From an uncultured Bacteroidota bacterium (GTDB lineage Bacteria; Bacteroidota; Bacteroidia; Chitinophagales; UBA8649): DNA of 30,179 nucleotides. The notes under the pieces are model-generated. The model had not been told where the DNA came from. It worked only from the letters and a program-made list of their open reading frames with translations, and did not search any database. Made by a program: the position numbers and the translations under genes. Of the stretch, positions 1,591 to 14,820 are shown piece by piece. Where the stretch lies: positions 1-30,179 of the forward strand of contig CAKZQD010000018.1 in assembly GCA_937139485.1 (NCBI GenBank), read 5' to 3'. Each line of letters opens with the position of its first letter. The first letter of the stretch is position 1.

Positions 1591-2330
1591 CTAAAAAACT
1601 TGCTTAAAAGGAATATAAAGTTTCACTTGTGTAGCTACAAATATATCATTTTCAAATACATCTTCATATTTAAAACCAAACTCGCCTTTATAAGTCTCGC
1701 TTAATATTTTAAAACGTTTTTCTATGGCTTTGGTAGAAAAAGATTCGTGTTTTGAGCCTTGCCTTGCTTTTATTTCTTTAGACTTTGCTCTTCCAATACC
1801 GTTATCTGTAATGGTACAAATGATTTTATCTTTTTGTTCAAACTCTATTTTTAGGGTTTTTTTCCCAGCTTTGTGCAGCAAACCGTGTACGAGTGCATTT
1901 TCTATAAATGGTTGTATTAAAAGTGGTGGAATTTCTATGCCTTCTATATCGTTATCTATTATTTTGTATTCAAAATCTTTTGAGAAACGCAATTTTTCTA
2001 AATCAAGATATAATTTCAGTAAATCTATTTCGTCTTCTAGTTCTACTAAATCTGCATCTGAAAAATGTAATGTTTGCCTTACCAGCTTTGCAAATTTTGT
2101 CATATAAACATAAGAAGCATCTACATCGCCTTTCATTACCAATGCTTGAATAGAATTGAGCAAATTAAAAATAAAATGCGGATTCATTTGAGATTTCAAA
2201 GCTTTTAAGTTGGAAATGGCTAATTCATTTTTTGTAGATTCTTCTAGTTTTAAATAGGCTTCGTCTAGTTTTGCTTTTTGGCTACGAATCAGTTTTAATC
2301 TGTTGAAAATAAATGCAATTAGTAAAGAAA
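1591..2330. repeat. About 95% identical copy of the kinase catalytic-core coding segment (compare 3577-4330)
   Basis: Protein differences are limited to a few patches: [62 protein letters not shown]. Nucleotide similarity decays near 2300-2340. Confidence 0.75.
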
Positions 2331-3558
2331 CAATTCCTGCAAAAACCAAAGCAAACCAACTAATAGTTTTACTTCTTTTTGCTTTTTCATCGGCTAATAA
2401 ACTTTGAGATTCTGCTAAAATTTTGCCTTGTTTGTATTTATCTGTTTCATATTGCGTTTCTAAATTGGCAATAATATTCAAATTCTCTGATTTTTGAATA
2501 CTATCCGTAAAATTATGGTATTTGTTGAGTGCTATATTGGCTTTTTTATATTGCTTTGAATTTTGGTAAAAACTACTTTTTGCATACAGATAGTCTTCAA
2601 TAATTTCCATATCTTGATTACCTTTTACAAGTATTTCTAATTCATCAAAATATAGTTTTGCTTTAGAAATATTATTTTCAATAGAATTAATAATTACTAA
2701 ATAATTTAAAGAACGAATGATGGCATTTTTGTGTTTAAGTTCTCTGCCAAGTTTTAGCTGTTTTAAAAAATATGTTTTAGATTTCTGATAATCTTTCATT
2801 AAGTAGTAAGAAAAGCCCATTTCGTCATAGTTAAGTGTTAAACTTGTTATGCGATTTATTTTTTTATTTATTTCGATAGCTTTTGCAGTAAAAATGATTG
2901 CTGAATCATATTTTTGTAATCTATTATAGTAATAGCCTAAACTTGAATAGTTGGCGGCGTTACAATGATTGTAGTAAGATTCATCTAAGGAGTCGCAATA
3001 ACTTAATGCCAAAAGGGTATATTTTATTGCTTCTTCTTTTTGATTTTGAATTTCGTATAGAGAAGCTATTCCGCCATAACAAGCAACTACAGCAGAATAA
3101 AGTTTTGTTTTTTCAGCTATTTTTAATGTTTCAAAATAATAAGCTGTTGCGTTTTTGTAATCACCTTTATTTTGATAAAGGTTAGCAATTTTTGCAGTCA
3201 TAGACAGTAAAGCAGGAGTATAGCCCAATGCTTTTCCCATTGTTTCTGCTTCTTTTAAAATAATTAATGCAGAATCTACTTTGCCTTTTTCTCTCAGCAC
3301 AAAGGCATATTCTTTTATGTATTGCATTATGTGTGTTGTGTCTTTAAGGCTACGGGCTAATTTTTCGCCTGAGACAATATATTTTAAATGCTTTTCTTTA
3401 TCTACACTTCGGTAATAACTGCATAAAGACATTTCGGTCTTCATCTTTATAGTGTCATTACTTGTGGTTTTCAATACTGTTTCTAGAGAGTCTATATTTA
3501 TTTGTTGAGCTTGAAGGCTCGAAACAAAAGCAAATAGTAGTAAAAAGAGGCATTTCAT
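1591..3558 (-). CDS. TPR-repeat periplasmic-sensor histidine kinase, LytS/YehU type (His_kinase PF06580-like plus HATPase_c), paralog 2
   Basis: 655 aa. N-terminal signal peptide [18 protein letters not shown]. About 370 aa of TPR-like Y/A/L-rich repeats. Single [22 protein letters not shown]. Cytoplasmic coiled coil. [13 protein letters not shown] motif (LytS/YehU His_kinase signature) and HATPase region TITDNGIG...GEFGF. Confidence 0.85.
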
Positions 3559-3576
3559 AAATTATTTGATTATTTT

Positions 3577-4436
3577 TTAAAAAACTTGTTTAAAAGGAAT
3601 ATAAAGTTTCACTTGTGTAGCTACAAATATATCGTTTTCAAATACATCTTCATATTTAAAACCAAACTCGCCTTTATAGGTTTCGCTCAATATTTTAAAA
3701 CGTTTTTCTATGGCTTTGGTAGAAAAAGATTTGTGCTGAATATCTTGCCTTGCTTTTATTTCTTTGGCTTTTGTTCGCCCTATTCCATTGTCTGTAATAG
3801 TACAAATAATTTTATCTTTTTGTTCAAACTCTATTTTTAAGGTTTTTTTCCCAGCTTTGTGCAGCAAACCGTGTACGAGTGCATTTTCTATAAATGGTTG
3901 TATTAAAAGTGGTGGAATTTCTATGCCTTCTATATCGTTATCTATTATTTTGTATTCAAAATCTTTTGAGAAACGCAATTTTTCTAAATCAAGATATAAT
4001 TTCAGTAAATCTATTTCGTCTTCTAGTTCTACTAAATCTGCATCTGAAAAATGTAATGTTTGCCTTACCAGCTTTGCAAATTTTGTCATATAAACATAAG
4101 AAGCATCTACATCGCCTTTCATTACCAATGCTTGTATTGAATTAAGCAAATTGAAAATAAAATGCGGATTCATTTGAGATTTCAAAGCTTTTAAGTTGGA
4201 AACGGCCAATTCGTTTTTTGTAGATTCTTCAAGTTTTAGATAGGCTTCGTCTAGTTTTGTTTTTTGAGTACGAATGAGTTTTAATTTATTGAAAATGTAA
4301 ACAGAAAATAATCCAATGAGTAAAGCAATAATTCCTGCGGCAAACATACCTAGCCTAGTTTTTTGTTTTTGCTGTTCGGCAAGTTCTAGTTTTTGTTGGT
4401 TTTTAAGATCGTCTATTTCTTTTTGCTTTTCGTACT
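3577..4436. repeat. Kinase-core repeat unit. 4061-4436 is identical to 1-396, and 3577-4330 is about 95% identical to 1591-2330
   Basis: Direct comparison of sequence blocks. The identity to the window-start copy extends further 5-prime (through the coiled-coil and TM coding region) than the identity to copy 2, suggesting recent gene conversion or duplication. Confidence 0.8.
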
Positions 4437-5643
4437 CATATTTTAGCCCTACTTTTAGTGCTTCTTTTTTGTTGCGATTGTATTTATATTCATCTTTTGT
4501 TTCGTAGTAAAGCTTTAAGGCTGTTATTTCCTTGTTTTTTTGTCCTAAACTGGCGTATATTTCACTTGCCAGTTGTGCAGATTGAATAATTCTATCTATT
4601 TCATTTAGTTTTTTAGATATTTTTAAAGAATTTTCAATTTCCTTTTCTGCCTTTTTATTTTTTCCTTTTAAGTGTAAAAACCGAGCAGAAAAATATAATC
4701 CTAATGCCTCAAACTCTTTCAAGTTTCGTTTTTTAGATAAACTAATCATTTCATTAATTAGCGTTTCTGACTGGTCAATACTGTCTTTATTAAAATAATA
4801 ATCAAGCATTATATGATTTGCTCTGTTTATTTGATATGCGTCGTTATTTTTTCCAATGAGTTTTTTTCCTTCTTTGGCGGCTAAATATGCCAATTTTTCT
4901 TCTTTTTTATAATTATAAATATCTGCTTTTGTAATATACAATTGCCCTTTTACTGCTGGATCTGCATTTTCAGCTAGTTGATTTATTGCATTATCTAAAG
5001 ATTTTATTGCCCGTTCTATATCTATATTTTCTTTCTGAATAGAAGCTATGTTTCTCAAAATAGTTCCTATAGACATTGCATCATTTAAGGCTTCTGCTAA
5101 AATTAAGGCTTCATTGAAATTTTCTAAAGCCAAAACTATATTTCCTTTGCTTGTATATATTGTTGCTTTGGCATTGTAAAGCTGTGTCACCCAAAAATTT
5201 TCATCTATTTCTTTAAACAATTCTAGTGCCTTGGTATAGTTTGCTAAAGCTGAGTCGGTTTTTAAACTTACATCGTAAGTGTAACCAAAAATACCTAAAG
5301 CCATTGCTTTGTAGAATTTATACTTTTTAATTTCTCTACTGTTTTTTGTGGTCAACAACCCCTTATTTGCTTTATTGTACAAAAAAAAATTATAAGGCTT
5401 CCATACTTTTTCGTCCCAACAGTTTTCTACTATTGCTGTAATAAACGATAAACGACTAGAATCGTATTCTGCTTTATGATATTGCGTTAAAAGGCTATCT
5501 AAAATTACTTTTTCTTGCGCAGAAACTTTATTTATTTCTAAAGAATCTATTAAGTAAAAATCTTTATCGCCATAGTTTTGTGCAGAAAGTTGAATTAAAA
5601 ATAAAAACGAAATTAGGAATAATATAAATTTATATGTGTTCAT
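3577..5643 (-). CDS. TPR-repeat periplasmic-sensor histidine kinase, LytS/YehU type, paralog 3
   Basis: 688 aa with the same architecture as paralog 2: signal peptide MNTYKFILFLISFLFLIQLSAQ, long TPR-like sensor region, TM GMFAAGIIALLIGLFSVYIF, NPHFIFN His_kinase motif, HATPase_c. The C-terminal 250 aa are about 95% identical to paralog 2 and are identical, where visible, to paralog 1. Confidence 0.85.
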   Translation of the reverse strand: MNTYKFILFLISFLFLIQLSAQNYGDKDFYLIDSLEINKVSAQEKVILDSLLTQYHKAEYDSSRLSFITAIVENCWDEKVWKPYNFFLYNKANKGLLTTKNSREIKKYKFYKAMALGIFGYTYDVSLKTDSALANYTKALELFKEIDENFWVTQLYNAKATIYTSKGNIVLALENFNEALILAEALNDAMSIGTILRNIASIQKENIDIERAIKSLDNAINQLAENADPAVKGQLYITKADIYNYKKEEKLAYLAAKEGKKLIGKNNDAYQINRANHIMLDYYFNKDSIDQSETLINEMISLSKKRNLKEFEALGLYFSARFLHLKGKNKKAEKEIENSLKISKKLNEIDRIIQSAQLASEIYASLGQKNKEITALKLYYETKDEYKYNRNKKEALKVGLKYEYEKQKEIDDLKNQQKLELAEQQKQKTRLGMFAAGIIALLIGLFSVYIFNKLKLIRTQKTKLDEAYLKLEESTKNELAVSNLKALKSQMNPHFIFNLLNSIQALVMKGDVDASYVYMTKFAKLVRQTLHFSDADLVELEDEIDLLKLYLDLEKLRFSKDFEYKIIDNDIEGIEIPPLLIQPFIENALVHGLLHKAGKKTLKIEFEQKDKIICTITDNGIGRTKAKEIKARQDIQHKSFSTKAIEKRFKILSETYKGEFGFKYEDVFENDIFVATQVKLYIPFKQVF

Positions 5644-11362: not shown

Positions 11363-12940
11363 TTAGTTTTTAAAAGTTATAGTTATATACCTTAGTTTTC
11401 CTCTATTTGTTGTTTTATAAAATTGATGAATTAATTTGCCGTTAAATACAATCAAACCCGTTTTTTCTAGGTTTGGCTTTGCTGCTAAGTTGTTATTAAC
11501 AACTAAATTTATATTTTCTTTGCTTAAAAGCTGTTTTTGAGAACCAGGAAAAAGTTTTAAACCACCAAACTTATCTTCAAAAGGAGATAAGCAAATAATG
11601 ATATTTATATTGTCTTGTTTTTGTTCGAAAGGCTTCGAAAAAGACTCTAAAGTTTCAACATAAGTCGCCTTTTCAATTTCAAACTTTTTATTCAAACTTT
11701 TTACTATTTTGGTAAATAATTCACAAAATATGAGCTCTTCTATTCTTGGATGAATAGACAATAAATTTTCTATTACAATTTGCTTTTCTTGAACTAAGTT
11801 ATGCTCTTTTTTATGTATTTGAATTAGTGCTTCTAGTTTTCCAATGTTTCGTTTTGGAAAAACTTGATTGTAAATATTATAGCCTTTATATTCATATTTT
11901 TTAAACTTGTTTTTAAGATTTTCTTCACTTATTTCCAAGTTATATAAATCTAAAGCACCTTCTATTCTACTTAAAATATTTTTTCTAAGCCTTTCTGGTT
12001 GCAGTACTTTAAGACCATCGCCAAAACCAAGCAGTTTTTTTTCTAACTCAAAATTATGTTGTACATGCATAGAAAAAGTATAGCCAAAATGATTTTTTTC
12101 TATGGTTTTTTGAGATTTATGCAGCGGTTTGGTTTCTACATAAGGTGCGTGCAAATGGTTTACAAAAAACACAACTTCCTCTACTTTTAAACCCGGACTC
12201 ACCGAAACACCAATAGCGTTTTCGTAATAAGTTTTGGCGTTAAAATTCTTATTTTCTTTAAATTCAGTAGCAGACATCTTTAAACTAATAATTCTATCTA
12301 TTGCTAAATTCATTATGGCATCGCCTTTATTTTTTCTTCCTATTAAAAACCAACGATTGTTAAATTCTTTGAGCAAATAAGCGTGAAATATAAAAGAGGC
12401 CGCTTTTCTAGCCTTAAAAGATTGGTAAGAAACTTCAATCGCTTTTTTTTGTATAATACTTTGATATAAAAAGTCTAAATGTTGAAGCCCTTTGAGGTTT
12501 TCATTTTTTTCAAAATCTATAACAGGTTCTGTATGTGTCTTTTGCGAATAAATTTGATCTTCCAGTTTCTGAACCATTCCGCTCAAATCATCAAAATGAG
12601 AAAAACCTTGAAACTGCTTTAAAAAAGCAACAGCTTCGCCTAGTTTATTCAAGTCTTGGTCAGAAAGAGGAATGTTGGTTATAGAATATTCAGCATCTTC
12701 ATAAGTATAATACTTTCTTTCTAAAACAATAATCGGTGCATTATAACCCAACTTATTACTCCGCATCATTTGAATATCTGCTTGTACAGTTCGTTTACTT
12801 ACGCCATCAATTCCTTCAAACTCATACAAAGCATCGCTACAAGCATCTATTAAATCTTCAAGCGTCCATTTTCTAAACCTGTTTTGTAGGCAGTTGTCTA
12901 TGGTTTTGTATCGGATGAGGGCGTTTTTATTTATTGCCAT
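11363..12940 (-). CDS. WYL-domain transcriptional regulator (N-terminal HTH, WYL, WCX-like region) with an additional ~180-aa C-terminal domain of unknown function
   Basis: 525 aa. N-terminus MAINKNALIRYKTIDNCLQNRFRKWTLEDL is typical of Bacteroidota WYL regulators. WYL signature AIEVSYQSF...FIFHAYLLKEFNNRWFLIGR...LAIDRIISL. The C-terminal part ...FGGLKLFPGS...GLIVFNGKLIHQF...GKLRYITITF is beta-strand rich. Confidence 0.7.
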   Translation of the reverse strand: MAINKNALIRYKTIDNCLQNRFRKWTLEDLIDACSDALYEFEGIDGVSKRTVQADIQMMRSNKLGYNAPIIVLERKYYTYEDAEYSITNIPLSDQDLNKLGEAVAFLKQFQGFSHFDDLSGMVQKLEDQIYSQKTHTEPVIDFEKNENLKGLQHLDFLYQSIIQKKAIEVSYQSFKARKAASFIFHAYLLKEFNNRWFLIGRKNKGDAIMNLAIDRIISLKMSATEFKENKNFNAKTYYENAIGVSVSPGLKVEEVVFFVNHLHAPYVETKPLHKSQKTIEKNHFGYTFSMHVQHNFELEKKLLGFGDGLKVLQPERLRKNILSRIEGALDLYNLEISEENLKNKFKKYEYKGYNIYNQVFPKRNIGKLEALIQIHKKEHNLVQEKQIVIENLLSIHPRIEELIFCELFTKIVKSLNKKFEIEKATYVETLESFSKPFEQKQDNINIIICLSPFEDKFGGLKLFPGSQKQLLSKENINLVVNNNLAAKPNLEKTGLIVFNGKLIHQFYKTTNRGKLRYITITFKN

Positions 12941-13177
12941 TTTGAAATTTTTCTATAAAAATAACATTTATTTTTTACTACGCAAAAACACTGCGCACCA
13001 CCAAAACTATATTTGCATTATCAATATGAAAACGTTGATGATAGTTCATTAAAAAATACATCGATAAGATGTCAAGATACGTTTCGAGAGAAACAAAAAT
13101 GCTCTAAAAAATATAAGGTGTTTCTGTATAGCACCACTTTATTTTCAGAAATTCTGAAAAATATGATGATATTTTTT

Positions 13178-13330
13178 ATTCGGCACACGAATGTGTTGTA
13201 GGTTCGATTCCTACCTCTTTTTACGAAGAGTAACTCAATTGGTAGAGTAATTCCCAGACTAGAATCGTCTATAAATGTTCGCTACACTATCACTGTAGAA
13301 TGCAAAACTCAAAATTTTGCCTTGGAGAAG
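13178..13330 (+). other. tRNA-like fragments in permuted order, not an intact tRNA. T-arm gtagg-ttcgatt-cctac at 13198-13214; then ctctt/aagag helix; then canonical D-arm ta-actc-aattggta-gagt at 13231-13248; then an anticodon-arm-like ctaca-ctatcac-tgtag at 13282-13298
   Basis: Canonical GGTTCGATTCC T-loop and U8-A9 / A14 / GG18-19 / A21 D-loop features were read on the plus strand. The order is 3-prime half before 5-prime half, and no cloverleaf can be completed. See findings. Confidence 0.3.
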
Positions 13331-13719
13331 TTATAGTCGTCTTCTTTAAAAAATCGACTAGCATTGAAGAAACAGTATCTATTTAATTGGTTTTTTTGCT
13401 AAAGTTTCGACTTTGCTTTAAAACAATCGGTTTAGTGCCAGAAAATTTATCTGCAAACTTTTAAGTTTTACAATAATTTGGTTTAAAAACAAGTCTTTAA
13501 GCTTTTGCTTTTAGGTCTTTTTTGCAAATTGAATTTGAATAAAATAACAAAGCAAGCACATTTATTTTCCGCACTAAAAAGGTAATTGAATGCTACTGTT
13601 TCTTTTTAAAAAGATAAACGCGTCATTCCTACGCAGACAGGAATCTCTAATATCGAAGAAGAGATTTCTTTCAACAAAGAATTGACGGAATAATATAAAA
13701 ATTAAAAAACAAAGAAATT

Positions 13720-14820
13720 ATGAAAAGAATAAATATTAAAGAAGGTTATGTTGGATTAGTTTACAACAAAGGAAACTTCAAGGAGGTTTTAAGCAAAGGA
13801 AATTATTGGATAAACCCATTTAACGAAGTGTTTATCTATAACAAAATGAAAGAATTTACTTCAAATACAGATTTAAATATTTTGTTGCAAAATGAAAAGT
13901 TAGCTTCTATGCTTGAAATAGTAAAAGTAGCCGATTATGAAATTGTATTAAAATTTAAAGACAAAAATTTTGAGCAAATTTTAACTGCAGGAAAATATGT
14001 TTTCTGGAAAAATACTGCGAACTATAGTTTCAAAGCTATAGATTTAAGAAATACAGAAATTACTGAAGATATAGATATTGGTTTTTTGAAAAACGCTGCA
14101 ATGTATCCTTATGTAATTATGGCAAAAGTAGAAGCCAACGAAAAAGCTTTAATGATGCTTGATGGAAAATTTGATAGAATGTTAAGCGCAGGTACTTATT
14201 ATTTTTGGAAGAAAGCTAAAGCCATTACTTTGCAAAGGGTAGATATGAGAATTAAATCTTTAGAAATAGCTGGTCAAGAAATTTTGACTAAAGATAAAGC
14301 TAATTTAAGATTGACTTTTATGGCGCAGTACAAGGTAATAGATGCCAAAAAAGCCATTATGGAAAACAGCGACTATGAAAAACAATTGTACTCATTGTTG
14401 CAATTGGCAATACGTGAATTTGTAGGTACTTTGAGTTTAGACGAATTGTTGGAAAACAAAGAAGCCTTGACAAAATACGTTCAAAACACCGTAAGAGCCA
14501 AAGCACAAAAAATGGGTCTTGAATTAATAGATAGCGGTGTGAGAGATATTATATTGCCAGGCGATATGAAAGAAATTATCAATCAAGTATTGATAGCTCA
14601 GAAAAAAGCACAAGCCAATATGATAAGCAGACGTGAAGAAACTGCTGCTACAAGAAGTTTGCTAAACACAGCCAAATTAATGGAAGAAAATGCGATGCTT
14701 TTCAAATTGAAAGAAATGGAATACATTGAAAAAATTGCTGACAGAATTGGAGAAATTACAGTAAACGGAAGTGGAAATGTAGTAAAACAATTGAATGATA
14801 TTTTTGCCATAAAAAAGTAA
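13720..14820 (+). CDS. SPFH / band-7 (stomatin-HflK/C-like) domain protein with an extended, internally triplicated N-terminal region
   Basis: 366 aa. The C-terminal half aligns by eye with HflK/stomatin: QEILTKDKANLRL...TLSLDELLENKEAL...GLELIDSGVRDIILPGDMKEI...QKKAQANMISRREETAAT. The N-terminal has three similar segments: KGNYWINPF, TAGKYVFWKN and SAGTYYFWKK. Confidence 0.75.
   Translation: MKRINIKEGYVGLVYNKGNFKEVLSKGNYWINPFNEVFIYNKMKEFTSNTDLNILLQNEKLASMLEIVKVADYEIVLKFKDKNFEQILTAGKYVFWKNTANYSFKAIDLRNTEITEDIDIGFLKNAAMYPYVIMAKVEANEKALMMLDGKFDRMLSAGTYYFWKKAKAITLQRVDMRIKSLEIAGQEILTKDKANLRLTFMAQYKVIDAKKAIMENSDYEKQLYSLLQLAIREFVGTLSLDELLENKEALTKYVQNTVRAKAQKMGLELIDSGVRDIILPGDMKEIINQVLIAQKKAQANMISRREETAATRSLLNTAKLMEENAMLFKLKEMEYIEKIADRIGEITVNGSGNVVKQLNDIFAIKK

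What the first reader, a model, noticed from the sequence alone, without database searches (positions are those of the whole stretch)
12941..13720. 780-bp non-coding gap with permuted tRNA-like fragments (T-arm, then acceptor-like helix, then D-arm) that do not assemble into a tRNA
Seen directly. At 13198-13214 there is gtagg-TTCGATT-cctac, a canonical T-stem-loop with the GGTTCGATTCC consensus. It is immediately followed by ctctt-tttacg-aagag, a 5-bp helix that resembles a closed acceptor stem. Next comes ta-ACTC-AATTGGTA-GAGT (13231-13248), a textbook D-arm with U8, A9, A14, G18-G19 and A21. The next helix (attc/gaat, 13250-13265) has a non-canonical 8-nt loop without U33. A 5-bp/7-nt anticodon-arm-like hairpin (ctaca-CTATCAC-tgtag, U33 and a purine at position 37 present) comes only 33 nt later. 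Upstream, 13178-13192 forms attcg-gcaca-cgaat, with a 5-nt loop. So tRNA modules are present in the order 3-prime half then 5-prime half, with mismatched acceptor strands (ctctttt versus cgaagag), and I cannot complete a cloverleaf in either orientation. Possible explanations, all inference: (a) a decayed tandem tRNA pair or tRNA pseudogene; (b) a scar of site-specific integration and excision at a tRNA 3-prime end, since tRNA 3-prime halves are classic att sites; (c) a structured non-coding RNA that reuses tRNA-like modules. The neighbour is a WYL regulator, a family usually found on defence or mobile islands. The region also contains a UUCG-tetraloop hairpin (13404-13421) and a 6-bp hairpin at 13626-13647 upstream of the SPFH gene. 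The only track ORF here (13013..13201, 62 aa) ends inside the T-arm and looks spurious.
Basis: seen in the sequence. Interest (0 to 1): 0.55.

Follow-up and report, generated by a model that had tools for sequence, protein, structure and literature searches.

The report
Sealed tRNA mimic upstream of SPFH
The "scrambled tRNA pieces" form a real, conserved RNA domain: a circularly permuted tRNA look-alike with a sealed acceptor stem, of the bacterial Y-RNA-like (YrlA) kind, which in Bacteroidota sits in front of an SPFH/Band-7 gene of an RNA-repair locus, here without the Ro protein such RNAs usually accompany.

Summary
Window 13189-13253 (+) reads closing-stem strand, 5-nt variable loop, T-arm, closed 6-bp "acceptor" hairpin, U8-A9, D-arm, closing-stem strand. 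[quoted passage not shown]

- **Database hits:** ARAGORN finds no tRNA. Rfam gives a sub-threshold but significant YrlA hit (39.4 bits, E 6e-7).
- **Conservation:** A covariance model built here finds the module in all 36 sources that carry the SPFH homolog. It always lies between a divergent WYL-family regulator gene and the SPFH gene, on the SPFH strand.
- **Structure support:** Stems show compensatory changes. The tRNA Levitt pair 15:48 covaries (C:G 24, U:A 11, other 2).
- **Independent check:** An RNA-first metagenome scan recovers the same synteny (SPFH downstream in 53 of 55).
- **Larger RNA:** The module is one domain of a longer conserved RNA: a 5' stem-loop, two anticodon-arm-like hairpins and an H-type pseudoknot.
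- **Related loci:** Many add RtcB, PrfH, Rsr or intact tRNA genes. The window has no Rsr, no RtcB and no tRNA gene.

The decayed-tRNA and att-scar readings are rejected. The function (tRNA decoy or scaffold partner of SPFH in an RNA-damage response) is inferred. I rate it a new variant of a known kind.

The parts
11363..12940 (-). Divergent regulator gene: HTH-WYL-WCX protein with a C-terminal PhyH-like (2OG-Fe dioxygenase) domain, degenerate in this clade
   Evidence: Pfam WYL and WCX. Homologs carry PF05721 PhyH. The window protein lacks the HxD motif. The gene sits next to the RNA on the opposite strand in 36 of 36 SPFH-bearing sources.
12981..12995 (.). Palindrome CGCA-N7-TGCG, about 40 nt upstream of the WYL start codon; candidate operator of the WYL regulator (inferred)
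   Evidence: Present upstream of the WYL gene in 63 of 82 loci, mostly at offset 37-65.
13008..13015 (+). TATATTTG, matching the Bacteroidota -7 promoter consensus TAnnTTTG; candidate promoter of the RNA/SPFH transcript (inferred)
   Evidence: Regex match, also present at the same relative position in L081 and L082. The consensus itself is from my own knowledge and was not tested.
13117..13135 (+). Conserved 5' stem-loop GGUG-UUUCUGUAUAG-CACC
   Evidence: The loop motif lies 63-105 nt upstream of the first module in 24 of 42 loci. The metagenome scan shows 31 distinct covarying stem pairs, including G.U. RNAalifold predicts the hairpin.
13189..13253 (+). tRNA-like (YrlA-type) domain. Closing stem GAAU 13189-92 / AUUC 13250-53; variable loop 13193-97; T-arm 13198-13214; sealed acceptor hairpin 13215-30; U8A9 13231-32; D-arm 13233-48; A26 13249
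   Evidence: Rfam YrlA 39.4 bits, E 6e-7. R1 70.1 bits. Covariation and Levitt pair. Compensatory changes in L081 and L082. All standard tRNA tertiary partners are present.
13256..13270 (+). Hairpin AGAC-UAGAAUC-GUCU, invariant in close relatives; role unknown
   Evidence: RNAalifold on the window, L081 and L082. No covariation is available.
13282..13298 (+). Anticodon-arm-like hairpin 1: CUACA-CUAUCAC-UGUAG (5 bp, 7-nt loop, U33, A37)
   Evidence: The stem changes to CUUCA/UGAAG in L081. The loop is CUGUCAC in L082, which from memory matches the tRNA-Asp anticodon loop. The same CUACA/UGUAG stem occurs in L013.
13302..13320 (+). Anticodon-arm-like hairpin 2: GCAAAA-CUCAAAA-UUUUGC
   Evidence: The loop CUCAAAA recurs at the homologous position in L013, L023, L025, L028, L044 and L071. 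RNAalifold predicts the hairpin.
13326..13360 (+). H-type pseudoknot. S1 AGAAG 13326-30 / CUUCU 13341-45; S2 UAGUCG 13334-39 / CGACUA 13355-60; A-rich linker 13346-54
   Evidence: The same architecture, with different complementary S2 sequences, occurs in most loci. Found in 27 of 38 regions against 1 of 740 shuffles.
13361..13719 (+). Remainder of the leader up to the SPFH start. It contains blocks conserved in distant loci (for example UUUCCGC at 13566-13572); structure unresolved
   Evidence: Alignment of 12 loci. 84% mean identity across the whole gap in L081 and L082. No terminator-like site on the + strand between the module and the gene.
13720..14820 (+). SPFH/Band-7 gene (366 aa; no hydrophobic N-terminal segment is obvious by eye)
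   Evidence: Pfam Band_7, E 9e-35. Translation. Found downstream of the RNA in 35 of 35 related loci plus the window, and in 53 of 55 RNA-first metagenome hits.

Best explanation
The element at 13189-13253 is the tRNA-like domain of a YrlA-class non-coding RNA: a circularly permuted tRNA mimic.

**Fold**
- The acceptor stem is sealed by a tetraloop, so there is no CCA end and no aminoacylation.
- The anticodon stem is replaced by a closing stem that joins the domain to the rest of the transcript.
- It keeps the tRNA elbow (T-loop/D-loop contacts, the 15:48 Levitt pair, G46) and should fold into an L-shape.

**Context**
- It is one domain of a longer conserved RNA, at least 13117-13360: a 5' stem-loop, the tRNA mimic, two anticodon-arm mimics and a pseudoknot.
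- This RNA is read rightwards from the divergent promoter region, ahead of, and probably together with, the SPFH/Band-7 gene.
- The divergent WYL regulator probably controls it.
- The cassette is the Bacteroidota version of the RNA-damage response loci built around RtcB. In those loci SPFH with a tRNA-like RNA takes the place of Rsr (Ro60) with YrlA.

**Proposed working (inferred)**
The RNA is the RNA partner of the cytoplasmic SPFH protein. It presents tRNA-shaped and anticodon-loop-shaped surfaces, which either titrate tRNA-directed nucleases (decoy) or recruit tRNA-handling enzymes such as RtcB to a scaffold.

**Shown:** the structure, its conservation, its gene linkage and its strand.
**Inferred:** transcription, the RNA-protein partnership, and the decoy or scaffold role.
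For: - **Rfam:** the YrlA model aligns T-arm, closed hairpin and D-arm at 39.4 bits, E 6.1e-7.
- **Tertiary partners:** all standard tRNA tertiary partners are present in the window sequence.
- **Covariation:** on 37 modules, the closing stem and the Levitt pair were not imposed by my selection. The closing stem is 76% paired, with compensatory changes at all 5 pairs. The 15:48 pair is C:G in 24, U:A in 11 and other in 2.
- **Close relatives:** they change T-stem U:A to C:G, closing-stem U13192:A13250 to A:U, and the acceptor hairpin sequence, while keeping the pairing.
- **Model hits:** R1 finds modules only on the strand opposite the WYL gene, apart from a tRNA-junction false positive. Hits occur in 35 of 35 SPFH-bearing loci plus the window. 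They are absent from 12 loci where RtcB follows WYL without SPFH.
- **RNA-first scan:** the metagenome scan gives SPFH on the same strand downstream in 53 of 55 matches, against 0 of 31 stemless chance matches.
- **Locus content:** related loci carry RtcB, PrfH, RlaP and TROVE/Rsr.
- **Literature:** YrlA has exactly this layout and a crystal structure that mimics tRNA. Band-7/RtcB loci were predicted to carry tRNA-like RNAs, with YrlA occasionally next to Band-7 (PMC4201824; 10.1101/312249). In P. aeruginosa an SPFH gene sits inside the rtc locus (PMC13086221).
Against: - The Rfam score is below the YrlA gathering threshold (39.4 against 69).
- There is no exact GNCGAAN0-1G Ro-binding motif.
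- No TROVE/Rsr gene and no RtcB gene lie in the 30-kb window.
- The closing stem is only 4 A/U-rich pairs, and RNAalifold does not recover it.
- The fold is not more stable than shuffles.
- There are no expression data.
- No terminator separates the RNA from the SPFH gene, so it may act in cis as a leader rather than as a free RNA.
- The window's regulator has lost the dioxygenase HxD motif, so this reduced cassette may work differently from the fuller loci.
- I could not read Burroughs and Aravind 2016 (PMC5062991), so I cannot say how much of this RNA they already described.
Confidence: 0.75

Rival explanations
1. Cis-acting leader. The whole 600-nt conserved RNA, including the tRNA mimic and the pseudoknot, is a regulatory 5' UTR of the SPFH(-RtcB) mRNA. 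It would sense a tRNA-related signal (a tRNA-binding protein, a nuclease, or the WYL protein itself) and control downstream expression by attenuation or processing, rather than acting as a free RNA partner.
For: - It is always on the SPFH strand and directly upstream. The distance from the last module to the ATG is 262-654 nt.
- No terminator-like site lies between the module and the gene.
- Conserved blocks continue almost to the start codon.
- The pseudoknot with an A-rich linker has a riboswitch-like architecture.
Against: - Homologous modules next to Rsr in the same regulator family are followed directly by RtcB, without SPFH (L002, L050 and L068).
- Salmonella YrlA is a stable RNA processed out of an operon transcript (PMC7790460), so co-transcription does not imply a cis role.
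- No Rfam riboswitch model hits the region at E up to 10.
Confidence: 0.2
2. Sealed, permuted pro-tRNA. The element would be matured into a working or nicked tRNA. RNase P and RNase Z would open the acceptor loop, CCA would be added, and a ligase such as RtcB would join the ends, as for the permuted tRNA genes of Cyanidioschyzon (own knowledge).
For: - M. smegmatis YrlA, which has a 7-bp acceptor stem, is cut by RNase P and receives CCA (PMC4201824).
- Type-C modules in related loci have 7-bp sealed acceptor stems, a D-arm that I read as tRNA-Leu-like, and their own anticodon arm.
- RtcB is encoded in many loci.
Against: - The window module has a 6-bp acceptor stem with a 4-nt loop and no anticodon arm of its own. 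Its anticodon-stem position is occupied by the closing stem.
- There is no RtcB in the window.
- Salmonella YrlA, with a 6-bp stem, is not cleaved (PMC4201824).
Confidence: 0.04
3. Decayed tandem tRNA pair or tRNA pseudogene. The T-arm would be the remnant of one tRNA and the D-arm the remnant of the next.
For: - Tandem tRNA junctions do score with YrlA-like models. R1 false positives occur in the tRNA arrays of L006 and L022.
- 108 of 120 viral pattern matches lack a closed hairpin, consistent with tRNA-tRNA junctions.
Against: - The segment between the arms is a self-complementary hairpin, kept by compensatory changes.
- The closing stem and the Levitt pair link sequences across the supposed junction.
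- There is no tRNA call anywhere in the window.
- Position and strand are fixed relative to WYL and SPFH in 36 of 36 sources.
Confidence: 0.02
4. Scar of site-specific integration or excision at a tRNA 3' end (att site remnant).
For: tRNA 3' halves are common att sites (general knowledge). The flanking genes of the cassette differ somewhat between close relatives.
Against: - No integrase or mobile-element gene was found among the ORFs scanned around it. The neighbours are housekeeping genes: thiolase, BrxC, RNase Y and PheT.
- GC content is flat.
- The element is conserved with its structure across many genera.
Confidence: 0.01

Closest known systems
YrlA (Y RNA-like A), Rfam RF02553; Salmonella rsr-yrlBA-rtcBA operon (Chen et al. 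2014, PMC4201824; Wang et al. 2018, 10.1101/312249)
   Same: - Same domain order: V loop, T-arm, closed acceptor-like stem-loop, D-arm, and a closing stem in place of the anticodon stem.
- Same conserved tRNA nucleotides and 15:48 covariation.
- A 6-bp sealed acceptor stem, as in Salmonella.
- Encoded in an RNA-repair gene neighbourhood.
   Different: - No Rsr/TROVE gene nearby and no GNCGAAN0-1G Ro-binding motif.
- Below the Rfam gathering score.
- Embedded in a longer RNA with a conserved 5' stem-loop, anticodon-arm mimics and a pseudoknot.
- Linked to SPFH and to a WYL regulator instead of Rsr and RtcR.
Band-7/SPFH-RtcB RNA-repair systems with the 'b7a-tRNA' (Burroughs and Aravind 2016, known to me only through 10.1101/312249 and my recollection of its abstract)
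   Same: - An SPFH/Band-7 gene with a cognate tRNA-like RNA upstream.
- RtcB follows in many related loci.
- The cited text states that YrlA is occasionally adjacent to Band-7.
   Different: - The b7a-tRNA is described as strongly resembling an authentic tRNA, whereas this element is permuted and is not called by ARAGORN or the Rfam tRNA model.
- In the WYL-anchored Bacteroidota loci the permuted module is universal (36 of 36), not occasional.
- Intact tRNA-Tyr or tRNA-Phe genes (possibly the b7a-tRNA) are an optional extra and are absent here.
- RtcB is absent from the window.
RtcR-controlled rtc operon (CARF-domain activator that senses tRNA fragments; PMC7790460, PMC10159003)
   Same: A divergent or adjacent ligand-sensing transcription factor controls an RNA-repair cassette that includes a tRNA-mimic RNA.
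   Different: - The regulator here is HTH-WYL-WCX-PhyH, not a CARF sigma-54 activator.
- Its ligand is unknown.
- A candidate operator, CGCA-N7-TGCG, is conserved.
Circularly permuted tRNA genes (Cyanidioschyzon merolae) and two-piece permuted tmRNA (own knowledge)
   Same: The 3' half (T-arm, acceptor 3' strand) is encoded before the 5' half (acceptor 5' strand, D-arm).
   Different: - Those are matured into functional molecules with free acceptor ends.
- Here the acceptor stem is sealed by a 4-nt loop and there is no anticodon arm within the domain.
- ARAGORN, which I understand can detect permuted tmRNA, finds nothing.

Membership tests
YrlA (RF02553; Chen et al. 2014) | Order V loop, T stem-loop, closed AS stem-loop, D stem-loop, with tRNA-invariant nucleotides | tested here: met
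   Sequence 13193-13248. Rfam alignment to model positions 23-85. Tertiary partners listed.
YrlA (RF02553; Chen et al. 2014) | Levitt pair 15:48 covaries (G15:C48 or A15:U48) | tested here: met
   The window has A13238:U13197. Across 37 modules the pair is C:G in 24, U:A in 11 and other in 2.
YrlA (RF02553; Chen et al. 2014) | Score at or above the Rfam gathering threshold (69 bits) | tested here: not met
   39.4 bits, with no hit at gathering. Rsr-adjacent modules of the same phylum also score only 35-43 bits, so the seed model under-represents Bacteroidota.
YrlA (RF02553; Chen et al. 2014) | 5' GNCGAAN0-1G motif (putative Ro60/Rsr-binding strand) | tested here: not met
   No exact match in 13001-13260. 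The nearest is CACGAAUG at 13186, which forms the closing stem. Closing-stem sequences differ freely in other loci.
YrlA (RF02553; Chen et al. 2014) | Encoded within 4 kb of a TROVE/Rsr gene on the same strand | tested here: not met
   Every ORF of 450 aa or more in the window was scanned, and none has a TROVE domain. TROVE does occur next to the same regulator family in 8 other loci.
YrlA (RF02553; Chen et al. 2014) | Bound by Rsr; modified by TruB and DusA | not testable with these tools
   Requires immunoprecipitation and modification mapping.
Band-7/SPFH-associated tRNA-like RNA of RtcB systems (Burroughs and Aravind 2016, via 10.1101/312249) | Encoded adjacent to a Band-7/SPFH gene | tested here: met
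   The SPFH gene at 13720-14820 is on the same strand, 465 nt downstream of the module. The linkage holds in 36 of 36 sources and in 53 of 55 RNA-first hits.
Band-7/SPFH-associated tRNA-like RNA of RtcB systems (Burroughs and Aravind 2016, via 10.1101/312249) | RtcB ligase gene in the same cluster | tested here: not met
   No RtcB in the window by tblastn; RNase Y follows on the opposite strand. RtcB follows SPFH in roughly two dozen of the 35 related loci. L005, L006, L030 and L079 also lack it.
Band-7/SPFH-associated tRNA-like RNA of RtcB systems (Burroughs and Aravind 2016, via 10.1101/312249) | RNA 'strongly resembles an authentic tRNA' (b7a-tRNA) | tested here: not met
   ARAGORN finds 0, and the Rfam tRNA model gives no hit at E up to 10. 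The element is permuted. Intact tRNA-Tyr or tRNA-Phe genes occupy the upstream position in other loci.
Authentic tRNA or tRNA pseudogene | Cloverleaf order acceptor-D-anticodon-T-acceptor with free 5'/3' acceptor ends | tested here: not met
   The order is T, sealed acceptor, D. ARAGORN and the Rfam tRNA model are negative.
preQ1-I-type riboswitch (considered for the pseudoknot at 13326-13360) | Match to a Rfam PreQ1 model | tested here: not met
   No such hit at E up to 10 in 12800-13900. Only the overall H-type shape with an A-rich linker is similar, and that comparison is from my own knowledge.

The most novel reading that the evidence does not exclude
A Ro-independent class of large composite tRNA-mimic RNAs exists in Bacteroidota. 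Each has a 5' stem-loop, one to three sealed permuted tRNAs, faithful anticodon-arm mimics and a pseudoknot. These would be the cognate RNAs of cytoplasmic SPFH proteins and would work as bait for anticodon nucleases. Cleavage of the bait, or its occupancy, would be read by the WYL regulator to switch on repair genes (RtcB, PrfH) and spare tRNA genes. In that case the window holds a minimal bait-plus-SPFH version of the system.
Probability: 0.15. Interest if true: 0.8.

Novelty: new variant of a known kind. Interest (0 to 1): 0.6.

Why it matters
The function of bacterial Y-like RNAs and of their tRNA-shaped domain is still unknown. So is the role of SPFH/Band-7 proteins in RNA-repair loci.

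This family separates the tRNA mimic from Ro. The mimic is strictly linked to SPFH (36 of 36 sources here, 53 of 55 in an independent scan). It also occurs beside Rsr under the same regulator family. That supports the idea that the tRNA-shaped domain is the working part and that Ro and SPFH are interchangeable partners.

The added anticodon-arm mimics, and the neighbouring spare tRNA genes in relatives, point to anticodon-loop damage as the stress this locus answers.

The cassette is small (regulator, RNA, SPFH), and related loci occur in named cultured genera such as Winogradskyella, Olleya and Algibacter. Binding, decoy and induction experiments are therefore directly feasible.

For annotation, it shows that such elements are missed by tRNA finders and by Rfam at default thresholds.

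Tried and rejected
- **tRNA and Rfam searches.** ARAGORN on the window found nothing. Rfam at gathering found nothing. Only the E-value scan was informative.
- **Single-sequence folding.** Folding 13130-13330 and the module alone gave no significant stability. RNAalifold on three close relatives did not recover the 4-bp closing stem.
- **Burroughs and Aravind 2016.** The paper is not held. Searches for b7a-tRNA, WYL with RtcB, and SPFH with tRNA-like found no paper that describes this RNA.
- **Viral scan.** 108 of the 120 lacked a closed hairpin, consistent with tRNA-tRNA junctions. Twelve had a closed hairpin, but none had SPFH, RtcB, WYL or Rsr homologs nearby, so I dropped the lead.
- **Second module in the gap.** R1 with filters off found only one module.
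- **Degenerate tRNA upstream of the 5' stem-loop (13020-13116).** No Rfam tRNA hit at E up to 10.
- **5' hairpin as terminator or DNA operator.** It is not followed by a U-run in other loci, and its stems include G.U pairs. An RNA hairpin is therefore more likely, but a protein-binding palindrome is not excluded.
- **Pseudoknot as a preQ1-type riboswitch.** No Rfam support.
- **Leader between the pseudoknot and the SPFH start.** I did not resolve its structure.
Full report
**1. What is in the sequence**

Reading 13186-13256 on the + strand gives the following order:
- GAAU (13189-92)
- GUGUU (13193-97)
- T-arm GUAGG-UUCGAUU-CCUAC (13198-13214)
- hairpin CUCUUU-UUAC-GAAGAG (13215-30)
- UA (13231-32)
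- D-arm ACUC-AAUUGGUA-GAGU (13233-48)
- A (13249)
- AUUC (13250-53)

The middle helix is 6 bp with a tetraloop. ARAGORN finds no tRNA or tmRNA in the 30-kb window, and Rfam finds nothing at gathering thresholds.

An E-value scan of 12800-13900 gives one meaningful hit. YrlA (RF02553, Y RNA-like) scores 39.4 bits, E 6.1e-7, over 13190-13252, aligned to model positions 23-85. That region is a 4-bp outer stem enclosing the T-arm, a closed hairpin and the D-arm.

All the usual tRNA tertiary partners are present: U8:A14, A15:U48, G18:U55, G19:C56, U54:A58, G46 and A26:G44. So the "permuted tRNA fragments" have the known layout of the YrlA tRNA-like domain. In YrlA the acceptor stem is a closed stem-loop and the anticodon stem leads out to the rest of the RNA (PMC4201824; bioRxiv 10.1101/312249).

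**2. Surroundings**

- The gene to the left (11363-12940, - strand) has WYL and WCX domains. Its homologs, more than 7000 hits (the named ones are Bacteroidota), carry in addition a C-terminal PhyH dioxygenase domain.
- The gene to the right (13720-14820, + strand) is an SPFH/Band-7 protein. No hydrophobic N-terminal segment is obvious by eye.
- RNase Y follows on the other strand.
- No ORF of 450 aa or more in the window has a TROVE (Ro/Rsr) domain.
- tblastn finds no RtcB in the window.
- Composition is flat, and the flanking genes are housekeeping genes. Nothing suggests a mobile island.

**3. Comparative evidence, anchored on the regulator**

An alignment of 16 regulator homologs retrieved 80 genomic loci. 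A strict regex found 37 permuted modules in 29 sources. All lie on the strand opposite the regulator gene, and there are often two in tandem.

On their alignment, the T, acceptor and D helices pair by construction. The closing stem and the 15:48 pair were not part of the selection:
- The closing stem is 76% paired, with compensatory changes at all five pairs.
- The 15:48 pair is C:G in 24, U:A in 11 and unpaired in 2.
- Sliding the partners by 1-3 columns lowers the share of paired cells over the whole structure from 92.8% to 36-48%.

A covariance model (R1) then found 77 hits in 84 sources. These include modules outside the training set: L081 72 bits, L082 68, L083 67 and L065 65. Some hits inside the tRNA arrays of L006 and L022 are tRNA-tRNA junction false positives. 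Chen et al. warned of the same artefact (PMC4201824).

tblastn with the window's SPFH protein shows an SPFH gene in 35 loci plus the window. Every one has an R1 module between the regulator gene and the SPFH gene. Twelve loci where RtcB follows the regulator without SPFH have no module. RtcB follows SPFH in roughly two dozen of these loci. Other cluster members are PrfH (TIGR03072), TPR proteins, RlaP and a phosphoesterase.

In eight loci the same regulator family is divergent from an Rsr gene (TROVE plus the Ro60 vWA domain). The Rsr-adjacent modules detected there score only 35-43 bits on the Rfam YrlA model. That is the same range as the window element, so failing the Rfam threshold says little in this phylum.

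**4. Close relatives**

Two metagenomic contigs (L081 and L082) have regulators 83% and 79% identical to the window's. They share the arrangement regulator, roughly 900-bp gap, SPFH. In the gap alignment:
- T-stem U13199:A13213 becomes C:G.
- The acceptor hairpin becomes CCUA/UAGG or CUCUUA-GAAA-UAAGAG.
This favours the long-range closing stem.
- L081 and L082 carry single-base insertions inside the span of the 62-aa ORF, so that ORF is spurious.

**5. The module is one domain of a larger conserved RNA**

- **5' stem-loop.** Upstream, GGUG-UUUCUGUAUAG-CACC (13117-13135) has a conserved loop and freely covarying stems. It lies 63-105 nt before the first module in 24 of 42 loci.
- **Anticodon-arm-like hairpins.** Downstream are two 5-6-bp hairpins with 7-nt loops that obey anticodon-loop rules. 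These are 13282-13298 (loop CUAUCAC; CUGUCAC in L082) and 13302-13320 (loop CUCAAAA, which recurs at the homologous place in six distant loci).
- **Pseudoknot.** An H-type pseudoknot follows: S1 13326-30/13341-45, S2 13334-39/13355-60, with an A-rich linker. Its S2 helices differ in sequence but stay complementary across loci. The motif is present in 27 of 38 regions against 1 of 740 shuffles.
- **Remaining leader.** Further blocks are conserved nearly to the SPFH start, and no terminator-like site intervenes. RNAalifold on the three close sequences recovers all these hairpins.
- **Module count.** Only one tRNA-like module exists in the window. Relatives have up to three, often preceded by an intact tRNA-Tyr or tRNA-Phe gene, or by arrays of 8 or 17 tRNA genes.

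**6. Independent, RNA-first test**

I scanned metagenome contigs for the 5' stem-loop motif followed by a T-loop. The matches split cleanly:
- 75 matches have a flanking stem. SPFH lies downstream on the same strand in 53 of the 55 with enough sequence. The WYL gene lies upstream on the opposite strand in 40 of 61.
- 47 stemless matches have SPFH in 0 of 31.

The stems show 31 distinct pair combinations, including G.U. This argues for an RNA hairpin.

**7. How it probably works**

*Shown:* a conserved L-shape-competent tRNA mimic with a sealed acceptor stem, inside a longer structured RNA. It is always upstream of, and co-oriented with, an SPFH gene and divergent from a WYL regulator, in loci that elsewhere hold RNA ligase and ribosome-rescue genes.

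*Inferred:*
- Transcription starts in the divergent region. A TAnnTTTG-like box lies at 13008-15, and a conserved palindrome CGCA-N7-TGCG at 12981-95, found in 63 of 82 loci, may be the regulator's operator.
- The RNA pairs with SPFH the way YrlA pairs with Rsr.
- The tRNA-shaped and anticodon-shaped parts act as decoy or scaffold in a response to tRNA damage.

The decoy or competitor idea has been raised for YrlA (PMC7790460). The interchangeability of Ro/Y RNA with Band-7/tRNA-like RNA was proposed by Burroughs and Aravind 2016, as cited in 10.1101/312249. An SPFH gene inside the rtc locus is also seen in Pseudomonas aeruginosa (PMC13086221).

The main rival is that the RNA acts in cis as a leader. 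The two are not exclusive.

**8. Comparison with what is known, and novelty**

By anatomy the element works like a YrlA tRNA-like domain. As a family member it fails three defining features that I could test: the Rfam threshold, the Ro-binding motif and an adjacent Rsr gene.

It fits the predicted "Band-7 with tRNA-like RNA" systems. It is not the authentic-looking b7a-tRNA described for them, and the window lacks RtcB.

I could not read the 2016 paper. Some of what I describe may therefore already be in it. I found no paper in the held library that describes the composite RNA, the WYL-PhyH link or the pseudoknot, and Rfam 15 has no model for it. I rate it a new variant of a known kind.

**9. 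Limits**

- There are no expression or binding data.
- The closing stem in the window is short.
- The structure between the pseudoknot and the SPFH start is unresolved.
- The covariation counts are not phylogeny-corrected.
- The regex-selected set forces pairing in three of the helices.

Noticed in passing
window 11363-12940 (-), C-terminal third of the protein: The WYL protein of the window and its 525-aa clade (P0002, P0004, P0009) have a degenerate PhyH domain. The HxD iron-binding motif WHQD of the 570-aa homologs is replaced by FEQ, and there is a deletion of about 33 aa. The dioxygenase is probably inactive here, yet the ORF is intact.
   Followed up: partly
window 12981-12995: The palindrome CGCAAAAACACTGCG (CGCA-N7-TGCG) lies about 40 nt upstream of the WYL start codon. 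It occurs upstream of the WYL gene in 63 of 82 related loci, mostly near this offset, with a conserved A-rich spacer. It is a candidate operator or autoregulation site.
   Followed up: partly
L022 2166-3816 (-) and L006 3061-3861 (-): Arrays of 17 and 8 intact tRNA genes sit between the WYL gene and the permuted modules, on the RNA strand. Many other loci have a single tRNA-Tyr(GTA) or tRNA-Phe(GAA) there (L014, L026, L033, L049, L056, L059, L062, L079). The window has none.
   Followed up: partly
L044 2373-3902 (-), and L002, L004, L024, L050, L068, L076, L080: The same WYL-PhyH regulator family is divergent from an Rsr gene (TROVE plus Ro60 vWA domain) followed by tRNA-like modules. L044 has both Rsr with a module and a second module with SPFH.
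   Followed up: yes
related loci, hairpins after the modules (for example L013, L014, L015, L022, L039, L044, L056, L057): The 7-nt loops follow anticodon-loop rules, including the 36/37 correlation (G36 with G37; A36 or U36 with A37). From memory they match real anticodon loops: CUUUUAA (Lys), CUGUCAC (Asp), CUCAUAA (Met), CUGUAAA (Tyr), CUGAAAA (Phe). One module type has a D-arm that I read as tRNA-Leu-like and a 7-bp sealed acceptor stem, so it looks like a complete permuted tRNA.
   Followed up: partly
window 13326-13360: An H-type pseudoknot with an A-rich linker is conserved across the family with covarying S2 helices. Its overall shape recalls small riboswitch pseudoknots, but no Rfam model matches it.
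   Followed up: partly
window 13361-13719; for example UUUCCGC at 13566-13572: Sequence blocks between the pseudoknot and the SPFH start are conserved in distant loci: GGAUACCG (not recognisable in the window), UUUCCGC and CUUUCUUUAAAA. The conserved RNA may therefore be about 600 nt long. Its structure is unresolved.
   Followed up: partly
window 13082-13095: The hairpin GUUUC-GAGA-GAAAC has its loop changed to GAAA in L081 and L082. It lies upstream of the 5' stem-loop, and its role is unknown.
   Followed up: no
L056 3292-3427 (-): The two tandem modules have acceptor hairpins of nearly the same sequence (UCCCGG...CCGGGG). [quoted passage not shown] The Rfam tRNA model scores this cross-module reading at 40 bits.
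   Followed up: no
viral contigs L089, L093, L106, L114, L115, L139, L142, L144, L174, L187, L196, L198: Twelve viral contigs carry a T-arm, closed hairpin and D-arm arrangement with the window-type D-arm. No homologs of the Bacteroidota SPFH, RtcB, WYL or Rsr proteins lie nearby.
   Followed up: partly
window 1591-5643 (-): Two adjacent paralogous genes encode TPR plus His_kinase (PF06580) proteins of 655 and 688 aa. They are unrelated to the finding.
   Followed up: no
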